The notes beneath the pieces are model-generated. The model had not been told where the DNA came from. It worked only from the letters and a program-made list of their open reading frames with translations, and ran no database searches. A program made the position numbers and the translations under genes. A stretch of 64,000 nucleotides of DNA from the NCBI GenBank assembly GCA_964427895.1, contig CAYRUZ010000001.1, forward strand, positions 31,480-95,479, given 5' to 3'. Every line of letters starts with the position of its first letter. Within the stretch, counting starts at the first letter, position 1. The stretch is from an uncultured Candidatus Peribacteria bacterium (GTDB taxonomy: Bacteria; Patescibacteriota; Gracilibacteria; Peribacterales; Peribacteraceae). This document shows positions 2 through 56,247 of this stretch, in pieces.

Positions 2-928
2 CTCCGTGATGTTCGCCACTGGCTCGACCACTGGGCGCTGCGCACCGCTCCTCCGCATGTGCTGGCAATCTTCCGCATTGCCTTCGGCCTTTTCCTCCTC
101 CTCTACTGGGGCCTGCGCCTGCCGCATGTCCCGATGATGTTCTCCGTCGAAGGATTGCTCCTGCCGAACATTCCCGGGCTCGCGCCCTCGTGGATGCAGA
201 CATTGTTCCATCCAACGCCCCTGTGGGCCTGGATCACGTACGCGGCGATGATGACCAGTCTCGTGCTCTTCACCGTCGGCGCGCTCTTCCGGCCCGCCAC
301 GTTCGTCGCCATCGTTCTGTACTTCTACTACTGGCAGCTGTCGCTGCACCTGCTGCCGACATCTTTCGACCGCCTCTTCGGTTTCACGTTCTTCGTCCTG
401 CTGTTCTCGGGTGCCGATCGCACGTTCTCGCTGCGCATGTGGTGGCGAGAAGGTTCGTGGATGGCCTGGGAACCGATTTCGGTCCTCCCGCAGCGCATCT
501 TGGCGCTTCAGATCACCGCGACGTATTGGGGCGTGGGCTGGCAGAAGATGGTCCTGCCGGATTGGCAGGGGGGAGAGATGCTGCCGTATTCCTTCGTCGG
601 GACGTGGGGTACCCCCGTGGCCTACTGGATGGTCCGCCAGAACTGGCCGATGGAGTTCTACGATTGGTCGGTGCTCACCGTGATGGCGTTCGAGTTCTTC
701 CTGCCCTTCGGTTTATGGGTGCCAGGCTGGAGATGGTTCTTCTACGCCGGCGGCCTCATCTTCCACTCCCTCATTTGGATCTTCCTGGATATCTGGTGGT
801 TCATGGTCTTGGTTCCCGCGTACATCGTGTTCTTCGAGCCGGAAGCGATAGCGGTATTTCTGCAGAAAATGGCCAAAAAACGCATTCGCGGGCTGCATCT
901 GCCGGCGGTGACGGGGTACCGGTCATAA
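2..928 (+). CDS. HTTM-domain (vitamin K-dependent gamma-carboxylase-like) polytopic membrane protein; 5' end outside the window
   Basis: The frame is open from nt 2, with no stop before the GTG at 59. It has the N-terminal LAIFRIAFGLFLLLYW motif and a Trp/Phe-rich multi-TM layout typical of HTTM domains. The layout resembles the N-terminal 300 aa of 56305..57627. Confidence 0.65.
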   Translation, partial: LRDVRHWLDHWALRTAPPHVLAIFRIAFGLFLLLYWGLRLPHVPMMFSVEGLLLPNIPGLAPSWMQTLFHPTPLWAWITYAAMMTSLVLFTVGALFRPATFVAIVLYFYYWQLSLHLLPTSFDRLFGFTFFVLLFSGADRTFSLRMWWREGSWMAWEPISVLPQRILALQITATYWGVGWQKMVLPDWQGGEMLPYSFVGTWGTPVAYWMVRQNWPMEFYDWSVLTVMAFEFFLPFGLWVPGWRWFFYAGGLIFHSLIWIFLDIWWFMVLVPAYIVFFEPEAIAVFLQKMAKKRIRGLHLPAVTGYRS

Positions 929-1268: not shown

Positions 1269-1274
1269 AGTTTG

Positions 1275-2294
1275 ATGCTATCGCCCGATCAGATTTTCGC
1301 GCAAGCGGCCCAACTGGGTGCGTCCGACGTGCATATCGTCGTGGGATCGCCCCCCGTCGCGCGCGTTGACGGCGTGCTGCAGGCCATGGATGGCGACGAG
1401 CTGACGGCCGCGGATGCTGCGTCGTTCGTCAAAGCCGTGCTCGGGCCCGTCATCTGGAAGACCTTTGAGGAAACGAAAGAAGCAGATTCGTCCTTCGAGA
1501 CGAAGGACGGCAAGCGCATCCGTATCAACTGCCACGTCACGCGCGGAGCCCCCAGCCTTGTCGCACGCATCATTCCGACCGCGATTCCCAGCATGGACGA
1601 GTTGGGCTTCCCGCCCGTGGCAAAGGAACTGGCATCGCTGCGCGACGGCTTGCTGCTCTTCACGGGACCGACGGGCGCCGGAAAATCCACGTCGATGGCC
1701 TCCATCATCCGCTACATCGCGGATGCGCGTCCGGCCAACATCATCACGCTCGAAGACCCGATCGAATATCTCTTTGAATCCGACAAGGGCATCATCCGCC
1801 AGCGCCAGTACGGCGAGGATTTCCTCTCGTTCCCCGAAGCCCTCAAGCACGTCCTGCGCCAGGACCCCGACGTGGTGATGGTGGGTGAGATGCGCGACCC
1901 GGAGACCATCGCCGCAGCCCTGACGCTTGCGGAAACCGGCCATCTCATTCTCGCCACGCTGCACACGCCCAACGCCGTGCAGACGGTGGACCGTATCGTC
2001 GACGTCTTCCCTCCGCATCAGCAGAACCAAGTGCGCATGCAGCTGTCGCTCTCATTGCGCGCCGTATTCGCGCAGCGCTTGCTGCCCAAGGTCGGCGGGG
2101 GACGCGTGGCGCAGCGCGAGATTTTGCTCAACACGCCGGCAGTGGCGAATGTCATTCGCGAGAACCGCATGGCCGAAATGAAGAGCGTGATGCAGACGGC
2201 GGCCGAAGAAGGCATGCAGACGTTCGAGAAAGACGCCAAGCGCTTGCTCAAAGCGGGTCTGATCGATGAGGAGACGATGAAGGCAGTGAGCTGA
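1275..2294 (+). CDS. pilT: Type IV pilus twitching-motility ATPase PilT
   Basis: Walker A GPTGAGKST, ITLEDPIEY, MVGEMRD and ATLHT motifs. The length of about 340 aa is typical of PilT. The ATG at 1275 is preferred over the TTG at 1272. Confidence 0.9.
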   Translation: MLSPDQIFAQAAQLGASDVHIVVGSPPVARVDGVLQAMDGDELTAADAASFVKAVLGPVIWKTFEETKEADSSFETKDGKRIRINCHVTRGAPSLVARIIPTAIPSMDELGFPPVAKELASLRDGLLLFTGPTGAGKSTSMASIIRYIADARPANIITLEDPIEYLFESDKGIIRQRQYGEDFLSFPEALKHVLRQDPDVVMVGEMRDPETIAAALTLAETGHLILATLHTPNAVQTVDRIVDVFPPHQQNQVRMQLSLSLRAVFAQRLLPKVGGGRVAQREILLNTPAVANVIRENRMAEMKSVMQTAAEEGMQTFEKDAKRLLKAGLIDEETMKAVS

Positions 2295-2401: not shown

Positions 2402-3952
2402 ATGAACGCGCTCCCTTCCAGCATTGAGTCAGCCCTTTCTGAGGCAGGCTTTTCGATGACCGAAATCCTCGTTGTCCAGCGGCTCGTGCAAGAGCCGGCG
2501 ATTACGATACGGCAACTAGCAGCGAAGACGGGGAAAAGTACCGGCGTCCTGGATCAGGCGATGAAGAAACTTTTGCGGAAGAGAATTGTAAATCGCGAAA
2601 TCATTAACGATTCCCCGAAATATACACTCAATTCTTTGGCGTCGGTTTCCCAATGGATTTTGCAGGATGTGCAGAGCAAGAGAGACGCGCTGCTACGGCG
2701 ATATCAAAATTTCGAGTCTTTCATGGCAACGCTCGAAATGGATAAAGCACGTCCAGAGATGAAGTATTTTGAGGGCGATGAAGGAATGCAGCAGGCATAT
2801 ATGAAACTTTTGGAATCCGGAGAGGAAATGAAGGAATATTTCCCCATTGTTCAAAAAGAAGAAGAGGACCGCTTCCGCGAGTTTCGTGTGAAGTACTTCC
2901 GAGCCCGCCAGGGGAGAAAAATATTTACACGGGTCATCACACATGACACGCCTTTAGGAAGGAGGTACCAGAGCAAAGATGCATTTGAATATCGACAGAC
3001 CGTTTTGATCCCTTCGGAATCTTTCCCCATCGGTTTCGAAAAAATCATCGTGGGTGACACTGTTGCGTGTTTCAATCACGCCGAAAAGAAAGTGTGTTTC
3101 ATTAAGTATGAGGAGTTCGCAAAAGCCGAAAGTGAATTATTCGAAACGCTGTGGAAAGCGAATGTTGGACGGGTGTTGCCTACTGCAAGGCCCCTGCAGT
3201 CTGTCTCACTTAAGACAAAGCTATTTTCACAGCTTAGAGAAGCTTTTTTAAGCCCCAAGTCTTTGGCTATTTTAGCGTTTTGTTGTGTTATATCTGGATT
3301 TTTGACCTATGGTCTGTATAGATACACTTTACGCATAATCATAAACGGAGAAGGCGAGAAAATGATTGAGAGTGCAATTAATAGCGCAGCGAAAATCTCC
3401 GACATCGATTTGTCGCGTATAAGAAAAGCAAACGATATGAAGTCTGAGGAATATCAAAAAGTTTTTGCGATTCTTAATGATATTCGTCATCTGAATAAAA
3501 GCATCAAATATGCTTATGTATTAAGACCGACTGATCAGTTTAATATTTGGGAATTCGTCGCAGACGCAGATTCCAATTACGATCTGCCATCAGAAATAGA
3601 TATGGATAATAATCAAAAAATTACATCTGATGAAGAAAATGTAGCCCCCGGAGTTGCTTATGACATTAAGCAGAGCCCCGAAACAACAATAGACGGTCCT
3701 TACATAGAAAATAATTTTTCAACTGATCAGTGGGGCACTTTTTTAACGGCTGGTGCGCCAATTCTTAATAAGCAAGGCCAGGCGGTCGCTGTCATTGCTT
3801 TAGATCAAGATGTGACAGATATCTATGCTCGGGTTAAGAAAATATTTATACCCTGGTTCGTATTTGGGATTATTTTCCTCGGTACAATCATTTTCCGAAT
3901 CATTCAAATTTCACATTCACTATTTCAATCGTTTACCAAAAAAGCTGCTTAA
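2402..3952 (+). CDS. Membrane-tethered TrmB-family regulator: N-terminal TrmB wHTH and TrmB-like middle domain, then TM, extracytoplasmic Cache/PDC-like sensor, TM
   Basis: The N-terminus (EILVVQRLVQEPAITIRQLAAKTGKSTGVLDQAMKKLLRKRIV) resembles the TrmB HTH of 37520..38278. Hydrophobic helices are LAILAFCCVISGFLTYGLY and IPWFVFGIIFLGTIIFRII. The region between them shares KYAYVLR, EFVADADS, STDQWGT and DVTD with the sensor of the kinase at 4555..6018. Confidence 0.75.
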   Translation: MNALPSSIESALSEAGFSMTEILVVQRLVQEPAITIRQLAAKTGKSTGVLDQAMKKLLRKRIVNREIINDSPKYTLNSLASVSQWILQDVQSKRDALLRRYQNFESFMATLEMDKARPEMKYFEGDEGMQQAYMKLLESGEEMKEYFPIVQKEEEDRFREFRVKYFRARQGRKIFTRVITHDTPLGRRYQSKDAFEYRQTVLIPSESFPIGFEKIIVGDTVACFNHAEKKVCFIKYEEFAKAESELFETLWKANVGRVLPTARPLQSVSLKTKLFSQLREAFLSPKSLAILAFCCVISGFLTYGLYRYTLRIIINGEGEKMIESAINSAAKISDIDLSRIRKANDMKSEEYQKVFAILNDIRHLNKSIKYAYVLRPTDQFNIWEFVADADSNYDLPSEIDMDNNQKITSDEENVAPGVAYDIKQSPETTIDGPYIENNFSTDQWGTFLTAGAPILNKQGQAVAVIALDQDVTDIYARVKKIFIPWFVFGIIFLGTIIFRIIQISHSLFQSFTKKAA

Positions 3953-4004
3953 TTGCCAGATTCGGAATAAAAAGCTTTTACCAGAGAATCTTGCTAAGTG
4001 TCTT

Positions 4005-4514
4005 ATGGAGGGTACGATACCTAGCATGCTTGGAGTTTTGCCGCAGTTCTATAAATTTACTGTCCAAACCGAACATAAGTTCGGAAGAGCGTTGATTGCA
4101 AATCTGCCTATTATCGAAACAGAGATAATTTGTAAGATGGCTGGCCCGCTTATCACTCTTAAGGAGTTTTTTGATAAGTATGAATGGAATTATTGTAATC
4201 CTCTACAGGTAGGTGCAGATCTGTATATTGATTTAATCGAGCCGTATGTGCTGATTAATCATTCTTGTGATCCGAATACGGGGGTAAGAAATAATGGCAT
4301 TTTGTTTGCATTAAGAGATATTCCAGCAGGAGAAGAGCTTACTTTTGATTACTCTACTTCTGTAGATGATGTGACGTGGACCATGGAATGTCAGTGCCAA
4401 AGCCCCAAATGTCGCAAGATTATTGGTGATTTTCAGTCTATCCCGCACGCTCAAAAAGAGTTTTATTTCAACAAAAATGCTCTTACTGCCTATATTAAGT
4501 CTTTGTACTACTGA
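4005..4514 (+). CDS. SET-domain protein (lysine) methyltransferase with post-SET Cys cluster
   Basis: SET signatures INHSCDPN and EELTFDYS, and a post-SET CQCQSPKC cluster. The ATG at 4005 is chosen because the track start at 3825 overlaps the upstream gene by 128 nt. Confidence 0.85.
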   Translation: MEGTIPSMLGVLPQFYKFTVQTEHKFGRALIANLPIIETEIICKMAGPLITLKEFFDKYEWNYCNPLQVGADLYIDLIEPYVLINHSCDPNTGVRNNGILFALRDIPAGEELTFDYSTSVDDVTWTMECQCQSPKCRKIIGDFQSIPHAQKEFYFNKNALTAYIKSLYY

Positions 4515-4515
4515 T

Positions 4516-4544
4516 TTCCTTAAAATCGCCAAAAGTGCTATAAT
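4516..4544 (+). promoter_or_regulatory. Extended -10 promoter in front of the histidine kinase (TTCCTT-17 nt-TGcTATAAT)
   Basis: TGC at 4536..4538 is followed directly by TATAAT at 4539..4544. A weak -35 (TTCCTT) sits at 4516..4521. The ATG at 4555 is 10 nt downstream and no SD is visible. Confidence 0.45.
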
Positions 4545-4554
4545 AACTGGGTAA

Positions 4555-6018
4555 ATGCCCGAAACAAACAAAAATGAGTTTAGGCCGTGGAAAAGCTATT
4601 TGCTGTTATTGGTGAGTGCCACTGTTACTATTTTTGTTACTTTTGTTATTTATAAAAATAATCAGCAAATTTCTATTTGGGCACTACAGCAGAAAGTAGT
4701 TGCAATTGCTGCAACAGCAGCTGCTAACTTTGATCCAAAAAAGTTGGACCAAATTAAGGGGCAAAAAAGTATCAATACGCAGGCTTATAAAGATACTGTT
4801 TTAAAGTTACAACTGATTAGATCACAAAATATTAATCTCAAGTTTGCTTATATCTTAAGAGGAACAAAGGACAAAAATATTTTCGAGTTTGTAGCTGACG
4901 CAGATTCACTACACCCCAATAATCCTATTGATTTGAATTATGATGGGAAAATTGATGACGAAGATGCTCTGACAAAACCTGGGGAAAACTACGATCAGTC
5001 CGAGTATCCTGAATTTGTAGAAAAAGCTTTTAAGGCATTCTATGTTGATGAAGAGCTTTCGACAGATCAGTGGGGTACACACCTTTCGGCAACTGCGCCA
5101 ATTTCAGGCATATACGGTCAAACAAACTATGTAATTGGCGTAGATGTAGATGTAACTGACTTTGTACGGCTTACAAATTTGGCTCTCATACCATTTGTGC
5201 TCTTTGCTGTTTTCCTTTTGCTAATTTTAACTGCATTGACAGTGAGTCTTGTTAAAATGTGGGGCCAGCGTGTTGATGCCCTGCGCGAATTGGATAAGCA
5301 AAAAGACGAACTCTTGAGCATCGTCAGCCACCAGTTGGCCGCTCCGGTGACATCCATCAAGTGGTATCTGGAACTCTTGCTCGACGGAGACACGGGCAAG
5401 CTGACGGATGACCAGACCACTACGCTCAAGAGCATGCAGACCATCTCTGTCGATTTGGCCGACTTGGTGAGCATGATTCTCGATGTATCGCGCATCCAGT
5501 TGGGACGCATGCGTATCGATGCACAGCCGCTCGACCTCAAGGCGTTCTTCGCGGAAATCCTCGATGTCATCGAGCCCAAAGCGAAGGAGAAGCCGGTGAA
5601 CTTCAAGGTCGAAGTGCCCGATGTTCTCCCGACTGTGCTGCTCGATAAACGCCTCACGCGCATGACGGTGGAAAACCTTCTGACGAACGCAGTGAAGTAC
5701 ACGCCGAAGGACGGCAACGTTACGTTCAAGGTGCAGCTGCGTCCGGACAATACGATGTACGTCGAGGTGCGCGACACGGGCTGCGGAATCCCCAAAAAGG
5801 ACCAGGACAAAATCTTCGGCAAGCAGTTCCGCGCCAGCAACGTCCGCAATACCATCGACGGCAACGGATTCGGCTTGTATGTCGCCAAGGGCGCCATCGA
5901 GAGCCAGGACGGCAAGATTTGGTTCGAGAGCGAAGAAGGCCAGGGCACCGCGTTCTTCATCACCCTGCCGTTGAAAGCACCGGAAGTGAAAGAGAAAGAA
6001 GCGCCGAAAGCACAGTAA
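4555..6018 (+). CDS. Sensor histidine kinase (TM, Cache/PDC-like sensor, TM, HisKA, HATPase_c); no cognate response regulator in the window
   Basis: H-box LSIVSHQLAAPVTSI, N-box LLTNAVKYTP, G-boxes DTGCGIP and GFGLYVAKG. Two TM helices flank a roughly 170-aa sensor paralogous to that of 2402..3952. Confidence 0.9.
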   Translation: MPETNKNEFRPWKSYLLLLVSATVTIFVTFVIYKNNQQISIWALQQKVVAIAATAAANFDPKKLDQIKGQKSINTQAYKDTVLKLQLIRSQNINLKFAYILRGTKDKNIFEFVADADSLHPNNPIDLNYDGKIDDEDALTKPGENYDQSEYPEFVEKAFKAFYVDEELSTDQWGTHLSATAPISGIYGQTNYVIGVDVDVTDFVRLTNLALIPFVLFAVFLLLILTALTVSLVKMWGQRVDALRELDKQKDELLSIVSHQLAAPVTSIKWYLELLLDGDTGKLTDDQTTTLKSMQTISVDLADLVSMILDVSRIQLGRMRIDAQPLDLKAFFAEILDVIEPKAKEKPVNFKVEVPDVLPTVLLDKRLTRMTVENLLTNAVKYTPKDGNVTFKVQLRPDNTMYVEVRDTGCGIPKKDQDKIFGKQFRASNVRNTIDGNGFGLYVAKGAIESQDGKIWFESEEGQGTAFFITLPLKAPEVKEKEAPKAQ

Positions 6019-6021
6019 AAT

Positions 6022-6048
6022 CCCACCGAAGCGTCCGGCTTCGGTGGG
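6022..6048. terminator. Hairpin between the convergent kinase and EamA genes (11-bp stem, 5-nt loop)
   Basis: CCCACCGAAGC (6022..6032) pairs perfectly with GCTTCGGTGGG (6038..6048). The flanking AAAA on the plus strand gives a U-run for the minus-strand transcript. Confidence 0.55.
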
Positions 6049-6076: not shown

Positions 6077-6505
6077 TCACTTGTTTCCTCCGGATGTCAC
6101 GCAGTAGAGGGCGGCGACACCGAGGACCCATCCGAGTATGGTGCGCCATTCCGGCAGTTCTTGCTTCACCGCGACGTCGATGAGCGTCGCCACGACGGGC
6201 AGCAGGCAGTAGTACATGGTCAGTGTCACTGCCCCGGCATCTTTGTGCAGCGCTTGGAAGTGTGCATGCGCTGCGATCACCGATGCGCCCACCATCAAGA
6301 CGACGAACGTCCATTGCTTCGCGGTAGGCATCTGCACTTCCGGGCGGCTCTGGATGAGCCAGATGAGCGTGAGGACAAACACGCCGCCCGAGTACAGAAG
6401 TGTGAGGAAGCGGGGATGGATGCCCTTCAGCTGGTGGTCCGTCACGCTGATTTCCGCAGCGTAGAAGAACATCGCGATGACGCAGAGAACGTGTGAGTTC
6501 TGCAC
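6077..6505 (-). CDS. Half-size (5-TM) EamA/DMT-family membrane protein
   Basis: 142 aa with five hydrophobic helices and an EamA-like C-terminal segment. GTG start with AAGGAG 6 nt upstream. Confidence 0.6.
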   Translation of the reverse strand: MQNSHVLCVIAMFFYAAEISVTDHQLKGIHPRFLTLLYSGGVFVLTLIWLIQSRPEVQMPTAKQWTFVVLMVGASVIAAHAHFQALHKDAGAVTLTMYYCLLPVVATLIDVAVKQELPEWRTILGWVLGVAALYCVTSGGNK

Positions 6506-6655
6506 GGTTGTACTCCTTCTCTAAGGGTGAAAGGTCGGGTGTTCCGGCGGTTGCCAGAACTCCTCCGATTATACGCTCAAATTGTATAATATAAAATATT
6601 TTTGATATTTGGCCAGAAAGCCGATTGTACGTTGTTTACGCTGCGTAGACGGCGC

Positions 6656-7102
6656 ATGATTGGGCCAATGTGGATCGTATTATCCGTAATGGCTTCTCTT
6701 CTCTGGGGACTGGTCTATGTCCTGTGCGAGCGTCTGTATGCCCATGTGCATGTCACGACGGTCTTGGCGGCGATCTCTTTTGTTGCGTTCATTGGAATGA
6801 GTCTTTTCGGATTGGCACGGGGCACCCTTGGAAGCGACTTGCAGATCATCGCTTCGTCGAAGAGCATTTTGCTTCTGACAATCGCAGTCACGTTGGTATT
6901 CATGATGGCAGAACTCTGCATTGGATTTTCCATCAGCGGACGCAATGCGACCCTCGCTGCACTCATCGAAATCTCTTATCCGTTTTTCACAGCGCTTTTT
7001 GCGGCTGTGCTCTTCCGCGAGAATTACCTCTCCGTCAGCGTGCTCGTCGGAGGACTGTTCATCATGTTCGGCGTGATGATCATTTCCATCTTCAACTACT
7101 GA
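6656..7102 (+). CDS. Half-size (5-TM) EamA/DMT-family membrane protein
   Basis: About 148 aa from the ATG at 6656, with five hydrophobic helices. The EISYPFFTALFAAVLFRE segment is typical of EamA repeats. It is divergent from 6077..6505. The start is uncertain (TTG 6602, ATG 6656 or ATG 6668). Confidence 0.6.
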   Translation: MIGPMWIVLSVMASLLWGLVYVLCERLYAHVHVTTVLAAISFVAFIGMSLFGLARGTLGSDLQIIASSKSILLLTIAVTLVFMMAELCIGFSISGRNATLAALIEISYPFFTALFAAVLFRENYLSVSVLVGGLFIMFGVMIISIFNY

Positions 7103-8960: not shown

Positions 8961-9725
8961 ATGTCCTCCATGCGGTTCTCGCGTGTCGCTCTATGCGTCG
9001 TTTCTGCTCTGCTCTGCGTCTCGTGCACGAAAGAGCGGCCAGCCGGCACCCCGCCCGAGGCATTGTTGCGAGAAAAAGGCCAAGCACTGTTCGGCGGCAA
9101 AATTTTTACGTGGGCGCGGACGAATAAGGCGGGCATCGATACCTTGGCAGTGCGTATTCCGGAGGTGACGCTCAACAACGCGCAAGACGCGGGGTCCGTG
9201 ACGATTGATGTTCCGACGCTTGTGCGCGAGACCACGGTGGTGCGCGACGTGTACGTCGGGTACGACGAGAATGGATCGTCGCCGCACCCGCACGCGCCTC
9301 CCTACCTCGTGGTGCGGCTCTTCACGCTCGAGCCGCAGGATCGCACAGGTATCCTCTGCGGCAATCCGCCGCATGTGGATCAGCACCAACTGCCGTCGAA
9401 CGTACACGTTTGGGGCGCCCGGCCGTACTGCCAAGCGGGGATCGGGTCCATGGCATGGCCGGAAGGGGGAAGCAACGTCGTCCTGCTCGGAACCACGACG
9501 AAGGCGAATGGGGCGGAATTCTCGTACGACGCCGGGTCCATTGTCTCGCTGGGCCTGTTCATCAACATTGATGTTTTGCAAAAGAAGCAGCGCGTCATCA
9601 TCGATATCCCCGAACCGCATGAGTCGTGGTCGCTCCGCTATCCCACCCGTGCAACGATCACCTTCAATGACGAAGATAACGGATACGATGTCGCTTTCAC
9701 CGACTGGGTCTCTCCTGGCAAATGA
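8961..9725 (+). CDS. Hypothetical lipoprotein
   Basis: Signal peptide with a lipobox (ALLCVSC). No recognised catalytic motif. Confidence 0.6.
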   Translation: MSSMRFSRVALCVVSALLCVSCTKERPAGTPPEALLREKGQALFGGKIFTWARTNKAGIDTLAVRIPEVTLNNAQDAGSVTIDVPTLVRETTVVRDVYVGYDENGSSPHPHAPPYLVVRLFTLEPQDRTGILCGNPPHVDQHQLPSNVHVWGARPYCQAGIGSMAWPEGGSNVVLLGTTTKANGAEFSYDAGSIVSLGLFINIDVLQKKQRVIIDIPEPHESWSLRYPTRATITFNDEDNGYDVAFTDWVSPGK

Positions 9726-36504: not shown

Positions 36505-37359
36505 TCAGCGGATGGAGTAGTTCTTCACTTCGTGTAACCAATGCGCGTCGTACTTCTTCTCGAGGTCGCTCCACACGCCGCTCGTTTCCATATAGAGGAG
36601 CGAGTTGTCGATGAAGAGGTGGAATGCGGAGTCCTCAAGCCGCATCGGCCAGGCATCCGGATTGATGTCGAACGGGGAAGATCCGAAGAGATCTATGGTC
36701 TCGGAGTGCGCGTCGGCGAACAACTTGATGGTCACCGCGTCGGCGATGCCGATGTCGGCGCGTCCCGACGACACCTCGAGGAGGAAGCGGGAGAGATCGG
36801 ATGATTCCACGTCGATGGGCACGATGGTCGCGTTCGGCAGGTGCTCCTTGGCGTAGATGTGGCCGGATTCGCCGTTGGCGACCGCAACGCGGATGCCGGG
36901 CTTGTTGGCGTCTTCGATGGTTGCGAAGCGCGTGTCGCCGCGGCGCACGAGCGCGCTGTTGCCCGCGTAGAAGAGCGGGCGGGAGAAGGCGACTGCTGCC
37001 GCGCGGGGCACTTTCACGAAGAGCGACGTGCCGATGTCACACTCGCCGGACGCCACGGCGGTCGCCATGTTTCCGAATGTGGATTCGTGGTACTCCGTTT
37101 TCACGTTGATCTGCTTCGCGATGTATTCGAGTGCGTCGATGTCGTGGCCGCTGAGTTTTCCCGTGGCGGGATCCTTGATCACGGCGGGAGGCCAGACCGC
37201 GTAGCAGACTTTCATCACGCCGGCCTTTTGGATGTTCGACAACGCGTCGCTGCTGAGTGTCGCGGCCGCATCGGAACCTCGCAGCAGGGTGATGGCCGAG
37301 AGGCACAAGGCGATGAGCGACAAGATCGTGACGCTCGTGACGGATGAGGGAGACTTCAT
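36505..37359 (-). CDS. Amino-acid ABC transporter substrate-binding protein (family 3)
   Basis: Signal peptide, about 284 aa, periplasmic-binding-protein-like sequence, first gene of the ABC operon. Confidence 0.8.
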   Translation of the reverse strand: MKSPSSVTSVTILSLIALCLSAITLLRGSDAAATLSSDALSNIQKAGVMKVCYAVWPPAVIKDPATGKLSGHDIDALEYIAKQINVKTEYHESTFGNMATAVASGECDIGTSLFVKVPRAAAVAFSRPLFYAGNSALVRRGDTRFATIEDANKPGIRVAVANGESGHIYAKEHLPNATIVPIDVESSDLSRFLLEVSSGRADIGIADAVTIKLFADAHSETIDLFGSSPFDINPDAWPMRLEDSAFHLFIDNSLLYMETSGVWSDLEKKYDAHWLHEVKNYSIR

Positions 37360-37441
37360 GGTATTAGACGTAATAAATAAAATGTTTCATAGTTATATAT
37401 AAAAATGTTGAAATGATCAAAAATATGAAAATAAATTTGGA

Positions 37442-37465
37442 AAAGATAATCGTTTTATTATCTTT
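37442..37465. promoter_or_regulatory. Perfect inverted repeat AAAGATAAT-N6-ATTATCTTT in the AT-rich divergent control region
   Basis: 9-bp arms at 37442..37450 and 37457..37465, lying 20 nt upstream of the -35 of the TrmB-family gene. Candidate operator. Confidence 0.4.
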
Positions 37466-37484
37466 AATAAGCCATTTATATTTG

Positions 37485-37513
37485 TTGATGAAATTTCAAC
37501 AAAATGATACTAT
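37485..37513 (+). promoter_or_regulatory. sigma70-type promoter (TTGATG-17 nt-TACTAT) of the TrmB-family gene
   Basis: TTGATG at 37485..37490 and TACTAT at 37508..37513. The GTG start at 37520 is 6 nt downstream (leaderless geometry). Confidence 0.55.
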
Positions 37514-37519
37514 TAAGGG

Positions 37520-38278
37520 GTGATTCAGCCTCTCCTCAAGCAGCTGGGCCTCTCTGAAAAGGAGATCGTCGTGTATCTCGCCATCCTGCAGCAGGGGAAA
37601 GTCTCCCCGGCAGACATCGCGACTCTGACGAATATCAACCGGACGACGGTGTATTCGGTCGCGAAGGAGTTGTTGAAGAAGAACCTGATCCGCGAGGAGA
37701 GCGGCAAGACGACGTATTGGATGGCCCGGCCTCCGGAGGACTTGAGCGTGCTCATCGAGCGGGAAAAGGAGGCGCTGCGGAAGAAGGAGCATTTGCTGCA
37801 GAGCGCGGTGAACGAACTCAAGCCGTTGATGGCCGGGATGCGGTACAGCATGCCCACGCTCACGTTCATCGACGAAAATCGCCTTGATGCTTACATGCGT
37901 TCCGAGAGCAAGAAGTGGACTGACAGCATCGTCAGGACCGACGGCCTCTGGCATGGCTTTCAGGACGACAGCTTCGTGGAGCACTACGAGGGCTGGGTCG
38001 ACTGGTATTGGCATTTGCCGATGTCCCAGCAGATCGTCCTCCATCTCTTCACCAACGATTCGTCGATCGAAAAGCGCATGCACCAGAAGAAGTACGAGCG
38101 CCGCCAAATGAAGTATTGGAAAGGCGGCGAAGTGTCCTCAACATTGTGGATCTGCGGAGAGTACATCGTCGTGATCGCGACCCGCTCCCGCCCCCACTAC
38201 TTGATCGAGATCCACGATCGTCTGCTCAGCGCGACGTTGCGCACGATGTTCGGCGATCTCTGGTCCAAGGAGAAGTGA
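37520..38278 (+). CDS. TrmB-family transcriptional regulator (soluble)
   Basis: N-terminal LGLSEKEIVVYLAILQQGKVSPADIATLTNINRTTVYSVAKELLKKNLI wHTH plus a TrmB-like C-terminal domain. Confidence 0.8.
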   Translation: MIQPLLKQLGLSEKEIVVYLAILQQGKVSPADIATLTNINRTTVYSVAKELLKKNLIREESGKTTYWMARPPEDLSVLIEREKEALRKKEHLLQSAVNELKPLMAGMRYSMPTLTFIDENRLDAYMRSESKKWTDSIVRTDGLWHGFQDDSFVEHYEGWVDWYWHLPMSQQIVLHLFTNDSSIEKRMHQKKYERRQMKYWKGGEVSSTLWICGEYIVVIATRSRPHYLIEIHDRLLSATLRTMFGDLWSKEK

Positions 38279-56172: not shown

Positions 56173-56247
56173 TGGCTCCCCGACTTGGACTCGAACCAAG
56201 AACCTTGGCGTTAACAGCGCCCTGCTCTACCATTGAGCTATCGGGGA
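56173..56247 (-). tRNA. tRNA-Asn (anticodon GUU), CCA encoded
   Basis: Hand-folded cloverleaf: TCCCCGA-TA-GCTC-AATGGTA-GAGC-A-GGGCG-CTGTTAA-CGCCA-AGGTT-CTTGG-TTCGAGT-CCAAG-TCGGGGA-G-CCA. There is one G-A mismatch at the top of the anticodon stem. Confidence 0.9.

What the first reader, a model, noticed from the sequence alone, without database searches (positions are those of the whole stretch)
3250..5290. AT-rich mosaic block with borders inside two ORFs; one TM-sensor-TM module sits on two different outputs
Hand GC counts of single 60-nt lines give 55% at 2401, 47% at 3001, 38% at 3301, 33% at 3601, 40% at 4201, 40% at 4861 and 57% at 5341. The return to high GC happens within about 50 nt near 5250-5290, inside the histidine-kinase ORF just after its second TM helix. 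The shift also appears in synonymous codon choice. Inside the block I see gca/gct, aaa, gat and att; after 5290 I see gcc/gcg, aag, gac and atc. So it is not only an amino-acid composition effect. The block contains exactly three things: the TM-sensor-TM C-terminal part of the TrmB-type protein (2402..3952), the whole SET-domain gene, and the TM-sensor-TM N-terminal part of the kinase (4555..6018). The two sensor domains are clearly paralogous, sharing K(Y/F)AY(V/I)LR, (W/F)EFVADADS, STDQWGT and DVTD. My inference is that a sensor(-SET-sensor) cassette of foreign or different compositional history was grafted onto resident GC-rich output domains. The three genes could then respond to one extracellular cue through three outputs: DNA binding, phosphorylation and protein methylation. 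No response regulator is encoded anywhere in the window.
Basis: partly seen in the sequence, partly recalled or inferred. Interest (0 to 1): 0.7.

Follow-up and report, generated by a model that had tools for sequence, protein, structure and literature searches.

The report
AT-rich swappable sensor block in Peribacteria
The AT-rich stretch is real and is the variable core of a signalling locus shared by a whole class of uncultured bacteria: the outward-facing sensor parts of two genes are exchanged between lineages at the membrane/cytoplasm joint and stay AT-rich, so it is not a one-off foreign graft in this genome.

Summary
Window 3206..5270 has 37% GC against 58.6% elsewhere. GC3 jumps from 0.32 to 0.80 inside the histidine-kinase ORF at codons 234-253, just after TM2. 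It falls from 0.54 to 0.32 inside the TrmB-like ORF about 20 codons before TM1. The two TM-sensor-TM modules are paralogous (33% identity, E 4e-29) and have a Cache/PDC fold.

The genome is a Candidatus Peribacteria (CPR) genome. Both architectures, and the order PilT / TrmB-like-Cache / cargo / Cache-HK, are conserved in more than 80 relatives.

- 38 of 83 orthologous kinases show the same intragenic GC3 step at the same place.
- Sensor and kinase similarities are uncorrelated (Mantel r about 0).
- Pairs with 88-95% identical kinases have 31-54% identical sensors, and identity collapses at residues about 232-245.
- Related genomes with 83-88% identical flanks share no DNA similarity across the block.
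- The cargo gene, SET here, differs between genomes.
- Sister lineages keep AT-rich sensors although synonymous sites are saturated, so this is not un-ameliorated recent import.

Best reading: a replacement-type variable island whose edges lie inside two sensor genes. Why it stays AT-rich is unresolved. I rate it a new variant of a known kind, interest 0.6.

The parts
1272..2294 (+). PilT-like ATPase. Conserved left neighbour of the locus with genome-typical composition (GC3 about 0.8).
   Evidence: Pfam T2SSE E 2e-43. GC3 profile. Syntenic in about 35 related loci.
2402..3205 (+). Cytoplasmic TrmB-like DNA-binding part of the 516-aa membrane-anchored regulator: winged HTH, long helix, then an alpha/beta domain. 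GC3 0.54, intermediate.
   Evidence: AF2 model pLDDT 85.5. Foldseek matches TrmBL2 over 261-271 alignment columns, E 2e-11. Pfam gives only a weak HTH_24 hit, E 0.003, below cut-off. Several homologues carry PF01978 TrmB or MarR.
3206..3952 (+). AT-rich C-terminal part of the same ORF: TM1 (residues 287-305), an extracytoplasmic Cache-like module, and TM2 (residues 483-501). GC3 0.32.
   Evidence: Change point at codon about 268. TM segments. 33% identical to the HK sensor, E 4e-29. Relatives carry 1-5 such modules in tandem in one ORF.
3599..3634 (+). Degenerate EF-hand-like loop DMDNNQKITSDE inside the TrmB-linked Cache module.
   Evidence: Loose pattern match at residue 400.
4026..4514 (+). 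SET-domain methyltransferase. It is 162 aa from the ATG at 4026, or 169 aa from the in-frame ATG at 4005; the 229-aa ORF starting at 3825 overlaps the upstream gene. It has no TM segment, GC3 0.3-0.45, and is cargo of the variable block.
   Evidence: Pfam SET 48.2 bits against a 22.4 cut-off. Called as 162 aa in L002. Motifs NHSCDPN, ELTFDY and post-SET CxCx4C are visible in the translation. PDB sequence hits ASH1L and BurB at E about 1e-10.
4555..5256 (+). AT-rich sensor part of the histidine kinase: TM1 (residues 14-32), extracytoplasmic single Cache/PDC domain, and TM2 (residues 209-227). GC3 0.32.
   Evidence: AF2 pLDDT 93.6. Foldseek matches WalK, Tlp3, KinD, DctB and CitA sensors, E 2e-5 to 2e-3, probability 1.0. 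No Pfam hit for the window copy.
4930..4965 (+). Canonical EF-hand-type loop DLNYDGKIDDED (HK residues 126-137) in an insertion of the Cache domain.
   Evidence: The strict pattern D-x-[DN]-x-[DN]-G-x-[ILV]-x3-[DE] occurs in 135 of 212 sensor modules. D126, N128 and G131 are invariant or nearly so.
5257..5314 (+). Junction interval (HK codons 234-253, from the end of TM2 to the start of DHp). This is where GC3 steps from 0.32 to 0.80 and where similarity between orthologues collapses.
   Evidence: Change point. Breakpoints in six close pairs at residues about 232-245. Median change point in 38 orthologues is residue 251, IQR 235-265.
5287..6018 (+). Kinase core: DHp (HisKA, phospho-acceptor His259 at nt 5329-5331) and the catalytic ATP-binding domain. 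GC3 about 0.8.
   Evidence: Pfam HisKA E 7e-11 and HATPase_c E 1e-26. H259 and the N, G1, F and G2 box residues are invariant in 28 sequences.
6022..6048 (-). GC-rich hairpin between the convergent HK and EamA genes. It is a likely transcription terminator and marks the end of the unit.
   Evidence: Terminator-like site with 11 pairs, 8 of them GC.
6077..6505 (-). EamA-family transporter, a conserved right neighbour.
   Evidence: Pfam EamA E 8e-12. Synteny.

Best explanation
**What the block is (shown).** Window about 3206-5270 is the variable core of a locus conserved across Candidatus Peribacteria. The locus order is PilT, then a TrmB-like membrane-anchored regulator carrying 1-5 extracytoplasmic TM-Cache-TM modules, then a variable cargo gene or genes (SET in this genome), then a Cache-type histidine kinase, then EamA and PolX.

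**What varies and what does not (shown).** The cytoplasmic output parts, the TrmB-like domain and the DHp/CA kinase core, belong to the conserved genome backbone. The DNA between them behaves like a replacement-type flexible island. That DNA comprises the sensor modules of both flanking genes plus the cargo.
- It comes in discrete, old sensor types, at least 10 for the kinase.
- Within a type the sensor is well conserved.
- The types are distributed without regard to the kinase or the neighbouring genes.
- Close relatives differ by wholesale replacement, deletion, reordering or inversion. The end points fall at the membrane/cytoplasm domain joints: about 20 codons before TM1 on the left and at the TM2-DHp joint on the right.

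**Composition (shown, cause inferred).** The island stays AT-rich (GC3 0.2-0.4) in hosts whose other genes have GC3 0.4-0.9, and it does so over times long enough to saturate synonymous sites. The composition is therefore maintained rather than a fading trace of one recent import. I infer that the GC-raising force acting on the backbone does not act on a segment whose alleles are too divergent to recombine. That force could be GC-biased gene conversion tied to homologous recombination, or selection. Occasional re-import from AT-rich relatives may add to the effect.

**Function (inferred from the families).** Each Cache module would bind an extracellular small ligand, and most carry an EF-hand-like Ca-binding loop. 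In the kinase the signal would pass through TM2 to DHp, leading to autophosphorylation of His259 and transfer to a response regulator encoded elsewhere. In the TrmB-like protein the sensor would control a membrane-tethered DNA-binding domain, with ToxR/CadC-like logic.
For: 1. Conserved architectures and synteny. Over 100 full-length HK relatives at 49-74% identity. TrmB-like proteins with Cache modules. Conserved gene order in 80 loci.
2. Recurrent compositional step. HK sensor GC3 is 0.2-0.4 in nearly all loci. 38 of 83 kinases have a significant upward step, with a median change point at residue 251. The sensor lies at least 0.2 below host genes in 57 of 68 loci; the slope against host GC3 is 0.19 for the sensor and 0.52 for the kinase.
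3. Decoupled histories. Spearman correlation of sensor against kinase identity is 0.015. Mantel tests give sensor half against sensor half r 0.42 (p 0.001), DHp against CA r 0.31 (p 0.001), and sensor against kinase r -0.06 to 0.08, not significant.
4. Breakpoints. Six pairs with kinases 87-95% identical have sensors 31-45% identical, and identity collapses at residues about 232-245.
5. The same pattern in the other gene. TrmB-like domain 98% against adjacent sensor 46% (L010/L028), and 95% against 44% (L022/L027).
6. Whole-block replacement. L010 and L028 flanks are 83-88% nt identical over kilobases. There is no nt similarity from inside the TrmB sensor to HK TM2, and the HK is inverted relative to the flanks. 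L003/L012 behave the same way. In all 8 related genome pairs the non-alignable inner segment is AT-richer.
7. Old, conserved types. Same-type sensors are 64-72% identical across hosts whose PilT is 63-76% and TrmB-like domain 47-58% identical. Hosts with PilT 82-93% identical carry different types at 35-53%.
8. Variable cargo, all AT-rich: SET, class I and NNMT-type methyltransferases, spermidine synthase, deoxyhypusine synthase, an aldehyde-dehydrogenase-like protein, and EamA.
9. Maintained AT-richness. For WIN/L083, L003/L084, L020/L013 and L026/L021, sensor 4-fold identity is 0.31-0.36 against a chance value of 0.25-0.33 (d4 >= 1.9). Sensor GC4 is 0.21-0.39 on both sides, in hosts with GC3 0.43-0.9 (three of the four pairs include a host at or above 0.64).
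10. Lineages where the sensor is as conserved as the kinase have host-like sensor GC3: L044/L045 at 0.94 and 0.90 identity with GC3 0.68-0.77, and L050/L053.
Against: - No conspecific strains were available. The closest relative is 74% identical, and JGI metagenomes gave at most 64%. Replacement is therefore inferred between species, not seen within a population.
- The HK family contains old paralogues. HKs co-binned in one MAG have kinases only 53-61% identical, so part of the global decoupling could reflect paralogue sorting. The syntenic close pairs are the cleaner evidence.
- No near-identical sensor is shared by distant hosts, so no transfer event is caught in the act.
- The cause of the AT-richness is not demonstrated. 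The 4-fold-site distance in the very GC-biased kinase of WIN/L083 (0.54) cannot be compared reliably with the saturated sensor.
- Contig ends are not enriched next to the block, as strain heterogeneity might have predicted.
- In some loci the whole HK is AT-rich (L010, L015, L028, L037, L058, L063), so the right border is not fixed at TM2.
Confidence: 0.65

Rival explanations
1. One reading: a single, fairly recent graft. A foreign AT-rich sensor-SET-sensor cassette was inserted into this genome, created the two fusions with resident GC-rich output domains, and has not yet ameliorated.
For: A sharp GC3 step inside the HK ORF. A shift in codon usage. Paralogous sensors on either side of SET.
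Against: Both fusions are ancestral in the class. The nearest relative L083 shares the sensor type and the step, with sensor and kinase about equally diverged at 72% and 78%. Synonymous sites are saturated, yet both lineages remain AT-rich. The two sensors belong to different old subfamilies and switch independently. There is no integrase, tRNA or border repeat.
Confidence: 0.07
2. No exchange at all. The sensors simply diverge very fast in place under diversifying selection, and mutational AT bias together with weak codon selection makes them AT-rich. The apparent 'types' would be an artefact of saturation.
For: On average sensors are less conserved than kinases, 46% against 65%. Mutation in bacteria is generally AT-biased (established knowledge; gBGC framework in PMC4450053).
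Against: Within a type, sensors are as conserved as PilT across distant hosts (64-72%), while close hosts differ at 35-53%. The two sensor halves co-vary but are unlinked to the kinase. Gene content, module number, module order and gene orientation change inside the block. SET, a cytoplasmic enzyme, is equally AT-rich.
Confidence: 0.15
3. Frequent horizontal flow from a low-GC reservoir, either AT-rich Peribacteria or their mobile elements. In this view sensors and cargo are always 'young' in any high-GC host, and that alone explains the AT-richness.
For: Low-GC Peribacteria exist (loci with 36-41% GC and GC3 0.25-0.45) and carry the same sensor types, for example type B in L048, L055 and L067. 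Type switching between close hosts requires a source.
Against: No near-identical sensor is shared between a high-GC and a low-GC host. The best cross-host identities are at most 74% with saturated synonymous sites. Sister pairs appear to have inherited their sensor vertically and still did not ameliorate. No match was found on viral contigs and no mobility genes lie in the locus.
Confidence: 0.12
4. Selection on translation. AT-ending, rare codons are favoured in the segments that must be inserted into or moved across the membrane.
For: Both borders lie next to TM helices, and the step recurs in two gene families.
Against: The cytoplasmic SET and other cargo enzymes are just as AT-rich. In several lineages the cytoplasmic kinase core is AT-rich too. 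Other membrane or secreted proteins in the window are GC-rich: the only other stretches below 47% GC are three 300-500 nt patches, and the membrane ORF 59..928 and the lipoprotein-like ORF 8961..9725 lie in stretches of roughly 50-64% and 59% GC. Some lineages have GC-rich sensors.
Confidence: 0.02
5. Assembly or binning chimera that joins reads from a low-GC and a high-GC organism.
For: The source is a metagenome-assembled genome.
Against: Contigs filed under two further sample accessions span the junction at 99.97-100% identity, although whether those samples differ from the window's source is not known. One ORF reads through in frame with a conserved family architecture. The same step appears in dozens of MAGs from different studies.
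Confidence: 0.01

Closest known systems
Replacement-type flexible genomic islands, for example O-antigen or glycocalyx islands (concept summarised in PMC10872708)
   Same: The position is the same in related genomes. Versions show little or no DNA similarity despite a similar role. The flanks are conserved and the content is outward-facing. Here the island is also AT-richer than the backbone, a property I recall as typical of such islands but did not find stated in PMC10872708.
   Different: This island is only about 2-4 kb. Its edges lie inside two signalling genes at domain joints, so what is replaced is a protein domain rather than a set of whole genes. It was seen between species of a class, not between strains of one species. 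No tRNA flanks it.
Staphylococcus aureus agr variable region (part of agrB, agrD, and the sensor half of agrC; PMC8768832)
   Same: A variable block has its borders inside two ORFs with a whole small gene between them. The sensor half of a histidine kinase varies while the kinase core does not. The types do not follow the phylogeny, which is explained by rare homologous recombination.
   Different: No signal-peptide gene or processing enzyme is present here. The sensor is an extracytoplasmic Cache domain, not a polytopic membrane sensor. The left-hand gene is a transcription regulator. There is a strong compositional contrast. No cognate response regulator lies adjacent.
Cache/PDC-type sensor histidine kinases (WalK, KinD, DctB, CitA) and Cache chemoreceptors (Tlp3, PctA)
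   Same: TM - extracytoplasmic PDC fold - TM, followed by DHp and CA. Fold match at Foldseek probability 1.0.
   Different: The sequence family has no Pfam model of its own, and only a few members reach marginal Cache hits. It has a conserved EF-hand-like loop insertion. There is no HAMP domain between TM2 and DHp: the first HisKA match starts at residue 249, about 20 residues after TM2.
TrmB/TrmBL2 family regulators, and membrane-tethered one-component regulators (ToxR, CadC)
   Same: The N-terminal 260 residues match TrmBL2 over the full length at the fold level. The topology, with a cytoplasmic DNA-binding domain, a TM segment and an outside sensor, resembles ToxR and CadC.
   Different: The known TrmB proteins I am aware of are soluble and sugar-responsive or chromatin-like. 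Here the domain is fused to 1-5 TM-Cache-TM modules. ToxR and CadC use an OmpR-type wHTH and a single TM.
Small bacterial SET-domain methyltransferases (protein lysine methyltransferases; BurB, a SET-type methionine S-methyltransferase, PMC12542666)
   Same: SET core with NHSCxPN and ELxFDY motifs and a post-SET Cys cluster. Sequence match to ASH1L, MLL and BurB.
   Different: The substrate is unknown. In relatives its place in the locus is taken by unrelated SAM or polyamine enzymes.

Membership tests
Class I (HisKA-type) sensor histidine kinase | DHp domain with a phospho-acceptor His in an H-box | tested here: met
   PF00512 at 42.4 bits against a 26.9 cut-off, residues 249-316. H259 is invariant in 28 sequences.
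Class I (HisKA-type) sensor histidine kinase | HATPase_c catalytic domain with N, G1, F and G2 boxes | tested here: met
   PF02518 at 93.9 bits. N374/N378, D407-G409-G411, F421 and G436-G438-G440 are invariant.
Class I (HisKA-type) sensor histidine kinase | Cognate response regulator (receiver domain), usually adjacent | tested here: not met
   No receiver domain in the 64 kb at E <= 10. Receivers are adjacent in only a few related loci. This is an orphan kinase; a partner elsewhere in the genome cannot be tested here.
Cache/PDC extracytoplasmic sensor domain | PDC fold (long N-terminal helix plus a five-stranded sheet) between two TM helices | tested here: met
   AF2 pLDDT 93.6. Foldseek matches WalK, Tlp3, KinD, DctB and CitA, E 2e-5 to 2e-3, probability 1.0, TM-score 0.39-0.45. 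TM helices at residues 14-32 and 209-227.
Cache/PDC extracytoplasmic sensor domain | Match to a curated Cache sequence model | tested here: not met
   No Pfam or NCBIfam hit for either window sensor. Only 1-2 of the 58 family members match any single Cache or PDC model, at E 0.002-0.006. A few homologues carry precomputed PF02743, PF17202 or PF22673.
TrmB family transcription regulator | N-terminal TrmB-type winged HTH (PF01978) | tested here: inconclusive
   The window protein gives only HTH_24 at E 0.003, below cut-off. About 15 of the 120 listed homologues have PF01978 on record.
TrmB family transcription regulator | Full TrmB architecture (wHTH, long helix, C-terminal alpha/beta domain) | tested here: met
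   Foldseek matches TrmBL2 (5bqt, 5bpi, 5bpd) at E 2e-11 over 261-271 alignment columns.
SET-domain methyltransferase | SET domain above the curated threshold, with catalytic motifs | tested here: met
   PF00856 at 48.2 bits against a 22.4 cut-off. NHSCDPN, ELTFDY and CxCx4C are visible in the translation. PDB hits at E about 1e-10.
Replacement-type flexible genomic island | Same locus in related genomes with conserved flanks and non-homologous or highly divergent content | tested here: met
   L010/L028, L022/L056, L022/L027 and L003/L012. Eight related pairs. Variable cargo.
Replacement-type flexible genomic island | Variation among strains of one species, with exchange by homologous recombination in the flanks | not testable with these tools
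   No conspecific genomes were found. The closest relative is 74% aa identical, and metagenome hits reach at most 64%.
agr-like signal/receptor specificity locus | Variable block with borders inside two ORFs, including the sensor half of the kinase, with types not following the phylogeny | tested here: met
agr-like signal/receptor specificity locus | A gene for the signal and its processing enzyme inside the block | tested here: not met
   The block in the window holds only SET. No small secreted-peptide ORF or AgrB-like protein was identified.
Classical mobile genomic island | Integrase or transposase, a tRNA target, and flanking direct repeats | tested here: not met
   There are no border repeats; the repeats found are the shared sensor motifs. 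The only tRNA is at 56173. The neighbours are PilT, EamA and PolX.

The most novel reading that the evidence does not exclude
The block could be a class-wide 'specificity cassette' system of CPR bacteria. In this reading, discrete and ancient types of an EF-hand-bearing Cache sensor are swapped at the TM2-DHp joint together with SAM- or polyamine-type cargo enzymes. The cargo seen so far includes SET/BurB-like, NNMT-like and class I methyltransferases, spermidine synthase and deoxyhypusine synthase. These enzymes would make or modify the cognate small-molecule cue, giving an agr-like signal-plus-receptor pherotype locus. Its AT-rich composition would be kept because its alleles cannot recombine with one another and so escape GC-biased gene conversion. 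If that held, the intragenic GC3 step would be a direct natural readout of gBGC in an uncultured phylum.
Probability: 0.12. Interest if true: 0.85.

Novelty: new variant of a known kind. Interest (0 to 1): 0.6.

Why it matters
It shows a whole bacterial class re-tuning what it senses by swapping the outward-facing domain of otherwise conserved signalling proteins at a fixed joint. This is natural domain-swap engineering of a Cache histidine kinase and of a membrane-tethered TrmB-like regulator.

The GC3 contrast of 0.3 against 0.8 lies inside a single reading frame and recurs in dozens of lineages. Because both halves share one mRNA and one expression level, this is an unusually clean natural experiment on what sets base composition in bacteria: recombination-linked GC bias, horizontal flow, or selection.

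It also defines a previously unmodelled Cache subfamily with an EF-hand-like loop, and a new architecture in which a TrmB-like domain carries 1-5 TM-Cache-TM modules. Both occur in Candidate Phyla Radiation bacteria, whose signalling is almost unknown. One full-text search for Peribacteria together with histidine kinase found no relevant paper.

Tried and rejected
- Assembly chimera: rejected.
- Border repeats or site-specific recombination sites: none. The only notable repeats are the conserved sensor motifs.
- Mobile-element hallmarks (tRNA, Rfam families, integrase): none in or next to the block.
- Phage carriage of the sensor. A degenerate EFVADADS DNA pattern gave one viral contig that is a chance match with no homology.
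- Closer relatives of the window's kinase in JGI metagenomes, sought to catch a recent swap: best hit 64%.
- Exchange between the TrmB-linked and HK-linked sensors, or intralocus cassette donation: rejected. The two are separate subfamilies, and within-locus paralogues have a median identity of 34% and a maximum of 52%.
- Concerted evolution of kinase cores among paralogues as the cause of the decoupling: not supported. Co-binned paralogues are 53-61% identical. L011/L038 are 89% identical with a 100%-identical nt stretch, but they come from different bins.
- Contig breaks enriched at the block, as a sign of strain heterogeneity: no asymmetry, 11 upstream against 12 downstream within 2.5 kb.
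- Comparing synonymous distances of sensor and kinase to date the two halves: inconclusive, because the sensor is saturated and the kinase is extremely GC-biased.
- Translation-speed selection for exported domains: rejected (see rival explanations).
- Promoter and terminator scan: counts are not above the shuffled expectation, so it is uninformative about co-transcription. The one clear feature is the hairpin after the HK.

Full report

Yes.

- The window has 57.8% GC. In 700-nt windows outside the region the mean is 0.586 (sd 0.033, minimum 0.479). Inside 3200-5300 the mean is 0.371, z = -6.5.
- It is the only low-GC stretch of this size in the 64 kb; three 300-500 nt patches also fall below 47%.
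- Third-codon-position GC in the kinase ORF 4555..6018 is about 0.3 for codons 1-235 and 0.75-0.9 afterwards. The maximum-likelihood change point lies at codons 234-253 (nt 5257-5314), with a log-likelihood gain of 58. TM2 is residues 209-227.
- In ORF 2402..3952 the change point is at codon about 268 (nt about 3206), roughly 20 codons before TM1 (residues 287-305). It is weaker, 0.54 to 0.32 with a gain of 13. The N-terminal part of that gene is intermediate, not backbone-like.
- Synonymous codon choice differs strongly for Ala, Ile, Phe, Asn, Asp and Leu.
- The two TM-sensor-TM regions are paralogous: 33% identity over 219 residues, E 4e-29.
- No receiver domain is detectable in the window.
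- The junction is not an assembly artefact. Contigs filed under two further sample accessions carry it at 99.97-100% identity; whether either sample also yielded the window genome is not known.

**2. What the parts are**

*Kinase.* It has HisKA and HATPase_c domains with invariant H259 and catalytic boxes. An AlphaFold model of residues 1-245 (pLDDT 93.6) shows TM1, a PDC/Cache fold and TM2. Its best PDB matches are the extracytoplasmic sensors of WalK, Tlp3, KinD, DctB and CitA, with Foldseek probability 1.0.

*Sensor sequence family.* At the sequence level it is an unmodelled subfamily. The window copies have no Pfam or NCBIfam hit, and only a few relatives give marginal Cache hits. The family is small: 777 representatives at E <= 0.001 among 1.84 billion proteins. 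It occurs in two contexts, kinases of about 475 aa and TrmB-like proteins with 1-5 modules. Most modules carry a canonical EF-hand-type loop, DLNYDGKIDDED in the kinase; the strict pattern occurs in 135 of 212 modules.

*The 516-aa protein.* Its N-terminal 260 residues match the archaeal TrmBL2 over the full length (E 2e-11). 'TrmB-type' therefore holds at the fold level, although Pfam gives only a sub-threshold HTH hit.

*SET gene.* It is most likely 162-169 aa, starting at 4026 or 4005. It is above the Pfam threshold and has NHSCDPN, ELTFDY and a post-SET CxCx4C motif. It has no TM segment. Its best solved-structure matches are ASH1L/MLL and BurB. BurB is a SET-type methionine S-methyltransferase (PMC12542666).

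**3. The wider picture**

The organism is a Candidatus Peribacteria or Peregrinibacteria (CPR) bacterium.

- The full-length Cache-HK has over 100 relatives at 49-74% identity.
- The TrmB-like-Cache protein has a similar number of relatives, mostly with two modules. What looked like solo sensors upstream are extra modules inside the same ORF, giving ORFs of about 520, 750, 1010 and 1250 aa.
- Gene order is conserved in 80 loci from GTDB species representatives: PilT, TrmB-like, cargo, HK, EamA, PolX.

The fusions are therefore old. They were not created in this genome.

**4. The compositional step recurs**

- In the 80 loci the HK sensor has GC3 0.2-0.4 almost everywhere, while PilT, PolX and the TrmB-like domain range from 0.4 to 0.9.
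- 38 of 83 kinases show a significant upward step of at least 0.2. The median change point is at window residue 251, IQR 235-265.
- The sensor lies at least 0.2 below host genes in 57 of 68 loci. Its slope on host GC3 is 0.19, against 0.52 for the kinase core.
- The closest relative, L083 (63% GC), has the same step, 0.36 to 0.90.
- The border is not fixed. In several lineages the whole HK is AT-rich. In a few lineages, which lack TrmB-linked sensors, the sensor is as GC-rich as the host.

**5. Sensor and output have different histories**

- Across 83 kinases, sensor identity and kinase identity are uncorrelated (Spearman 0.015).
- A Mantel test with internal controls shows that the decoupling is specific to the joint. 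The two sensor halves co-vary (r 0.42, p 0.001) and DHp and CA co-vary (r 0.31, p 0.001). Sensor against kinase gives r -0.06 to 0.08, not significant.
- Pairs with kinases 87-95% identical have sensors 31-45% identical. In six such pairs identity collapses from at least 95% to at most 45% at residues about 232-245, where the GC3 step lies in the window.
- The TrmB-like gene behaves the same way: domain 98% against adjacent sensor 46% (L010/L028), and 95% against 44% (L022/L027).
- At the DNA level, L010 and L028 share 83-88% identity over kilobases of flank. They share nothing from inside the TrmB sensor to HK TM2, and the HK is inverted relative to its flanks. L003/L012, L022/L056 and L022/L027 are similar, and the last pair includes module reordering.
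- In all eight related genome pairs the non-alignable inner segment is AT-richer than the aligned flanks.

*Sensor types.* HK sensors fall into at least 10 types that are scattered over the kinase tree. Within a type they are 64-72% identical across hosts whose PilT is only 63-76% identical. Hosts with PilT 82-93% identical can carry different types at 35-53%. The variation is therefore between discrete old types, not diffuse fast evolution.

*Independence of the two sensors.* HK-linked and TrmB-linked sensors are separate subfamilies. They switch independently.

*Cargo.* The cargo between the two genes varies: SET in either orientation, class I and NNMT-type methyltransferases, spermidine synthase with a PNP_UDP_1-family (nucleoside phosphorylase superfamily) protein and a phosphoribosyltransferase, deoxyhypusine synthase, an aldehyde-dehydrogenase-like protein, and EamA. 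All are AT-rich.

**6. Why is it AT-rich?**

*Recent import does not suffice.* In four sister pairs that share a sensor type (WIN/L083, L003/L084, L020/L013, L026/L021), 4-fold sites in the sensor are at chance identity (d4 >= 1.9). Both members still have sensor GC4 of 0.21-0.39, in hosts with GC3 0.43-0.9 (three of the four pairs include a host at or above 0.64). With that much turnover, a sequence subject to the host's composition-setting forces would have converged. This is my inference from standard amelioration reasoning.

*Translation-speed selection for exported domains is contradicted.* The cytoplasmic genes in the block are AT-rich, and other membrane proteins in the window are GC-rich.

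*What fits.* Lineages where the sensor is as conserved as the kinase have host-like sensor GC3 (L044/L045, L050/L053). This suggests that the GC-raising force acts where sequences remain alignable and can recombine. GC-biased gene conversion has been proposed for bacteria (PMC4450053). I cannot test it here, so I present it as the leading inference. Continued flow from AT-rich relatives is a partial alternative.

**7. Comparison with known systems**

The closest kinds are:
- replacement-type flexible genomic islands (PMC10872708);
- the S. aureus agr variable region, whose borders also lie inside two ORFs and include the sensor half of the kinase (PMC8768832).

The differences are the small size, edges at domain joints of two signalling genes, a Cache sensor, a TrmB-like partner, a strong and persistent compositional contrast, and no signal-peptide gene. 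It lacks every hallmark of a classical mobile island.

**8. Limits**

- No conspecific strains were available.
- The family includes old paralogues.
- No transfer event is caught in the act.
- Contig breaks are not enriched at the block.
- Ligand, SET substrate, partner response regulator and co-transcription are all untested.

**9. Verdict**

The block is the variable, persistently AT-rich core of a class-wide signalling locus whose sensors are exchanged at domain joints. I rate it a new variant of a known kind, interest 0.6.

Noticed in passing
window 4930-4965 (HK residues 126-137); window 3599-3634 (TrmB-like residues 400-411): The Cache sensor carries a canonical EF-hand-type calcium-binding loop, DLNYDGKIDDED, with a degenerate copy DMDNNQKITSDE in the paralogue. 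The strict pattern occurs in 135 of 212 modules across the family, which suggests structural or sensed Ca2+.
   Followed up: partly
window 37520-38278 (+): A 252-aa soluble protein with the same wHTH-plus-domain layout as the N-terminal part of the TrmB-like regulator, but without any TM or sensor module (22% identity, E 5e-4). It sits next to a short AT-rich patch at 37201-37700.
   Followed up: partly
L023:6141-7928, L073:6027-7898, L010:7064-7879, L035:6676-7542, L056:5407-7457, L049:5914-6882: The cargo genes that replace SET in relatives share a SAM/polyamine theme. They include class I and NNMT/PNMT/TEMT methyltransferases, spermidine synthase, a PNP_UDP_1-family (nucleoside phosphorylase superfamily) protein, a phosphoribosyltransferase, deoxyhypusine synthase, and an aldehyde-dehydrogenase-like protein. 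This may hint at what kind of molecule the neighbouring Cache sensors relate to.
   Followed up: partly
L010 versus L028 (L010 6424-8727; L028 8001-9377): In two closely related genomes the histidine-kinase gene is inverted relative to its conserved flanks. Its kinase core is more diverged (73.5% nt) than the flanks (83-88% nt).
   Followed up: no
L011 versus L038, kinase residues about 343-373: A stretch of 98-100% nucleotide identity lies inside kinase cores that are otherwise about 80% identical, attached to sensors only 36% identical. The two contigs come from different bins of one study. This could be a recent gene-conversion tract or the same population binned twice.
   Followed up: no
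window 6022-6048 (-): A strong GC-rich hairpin (11 pairs) lies between the convergent HK and EamA genes and could serve as a terminator for both.
   Followed up: no
window 6077-6505 (-) and 6602-7102 (+): Two short EamA-type half-transporter genes are arranged divergently. EamA genes also appear inside the variable block in some relatives, for example L003, L004 and L080.
   Followed up: no
L004, L011, L021, L046, L050, L052, L053, L060, L066, L073 (record titles): Several contigs carrying this Peribacteria-type locus are filed under unrelated taxa, including Gammaproteobacteria, Flavobacterium, Chthoniobacter, Micrarchaeota, Planctomycetota, Kiritimatiellales and Saccharibacteria. These are probably mis-binned contigs.
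   Followed up: no
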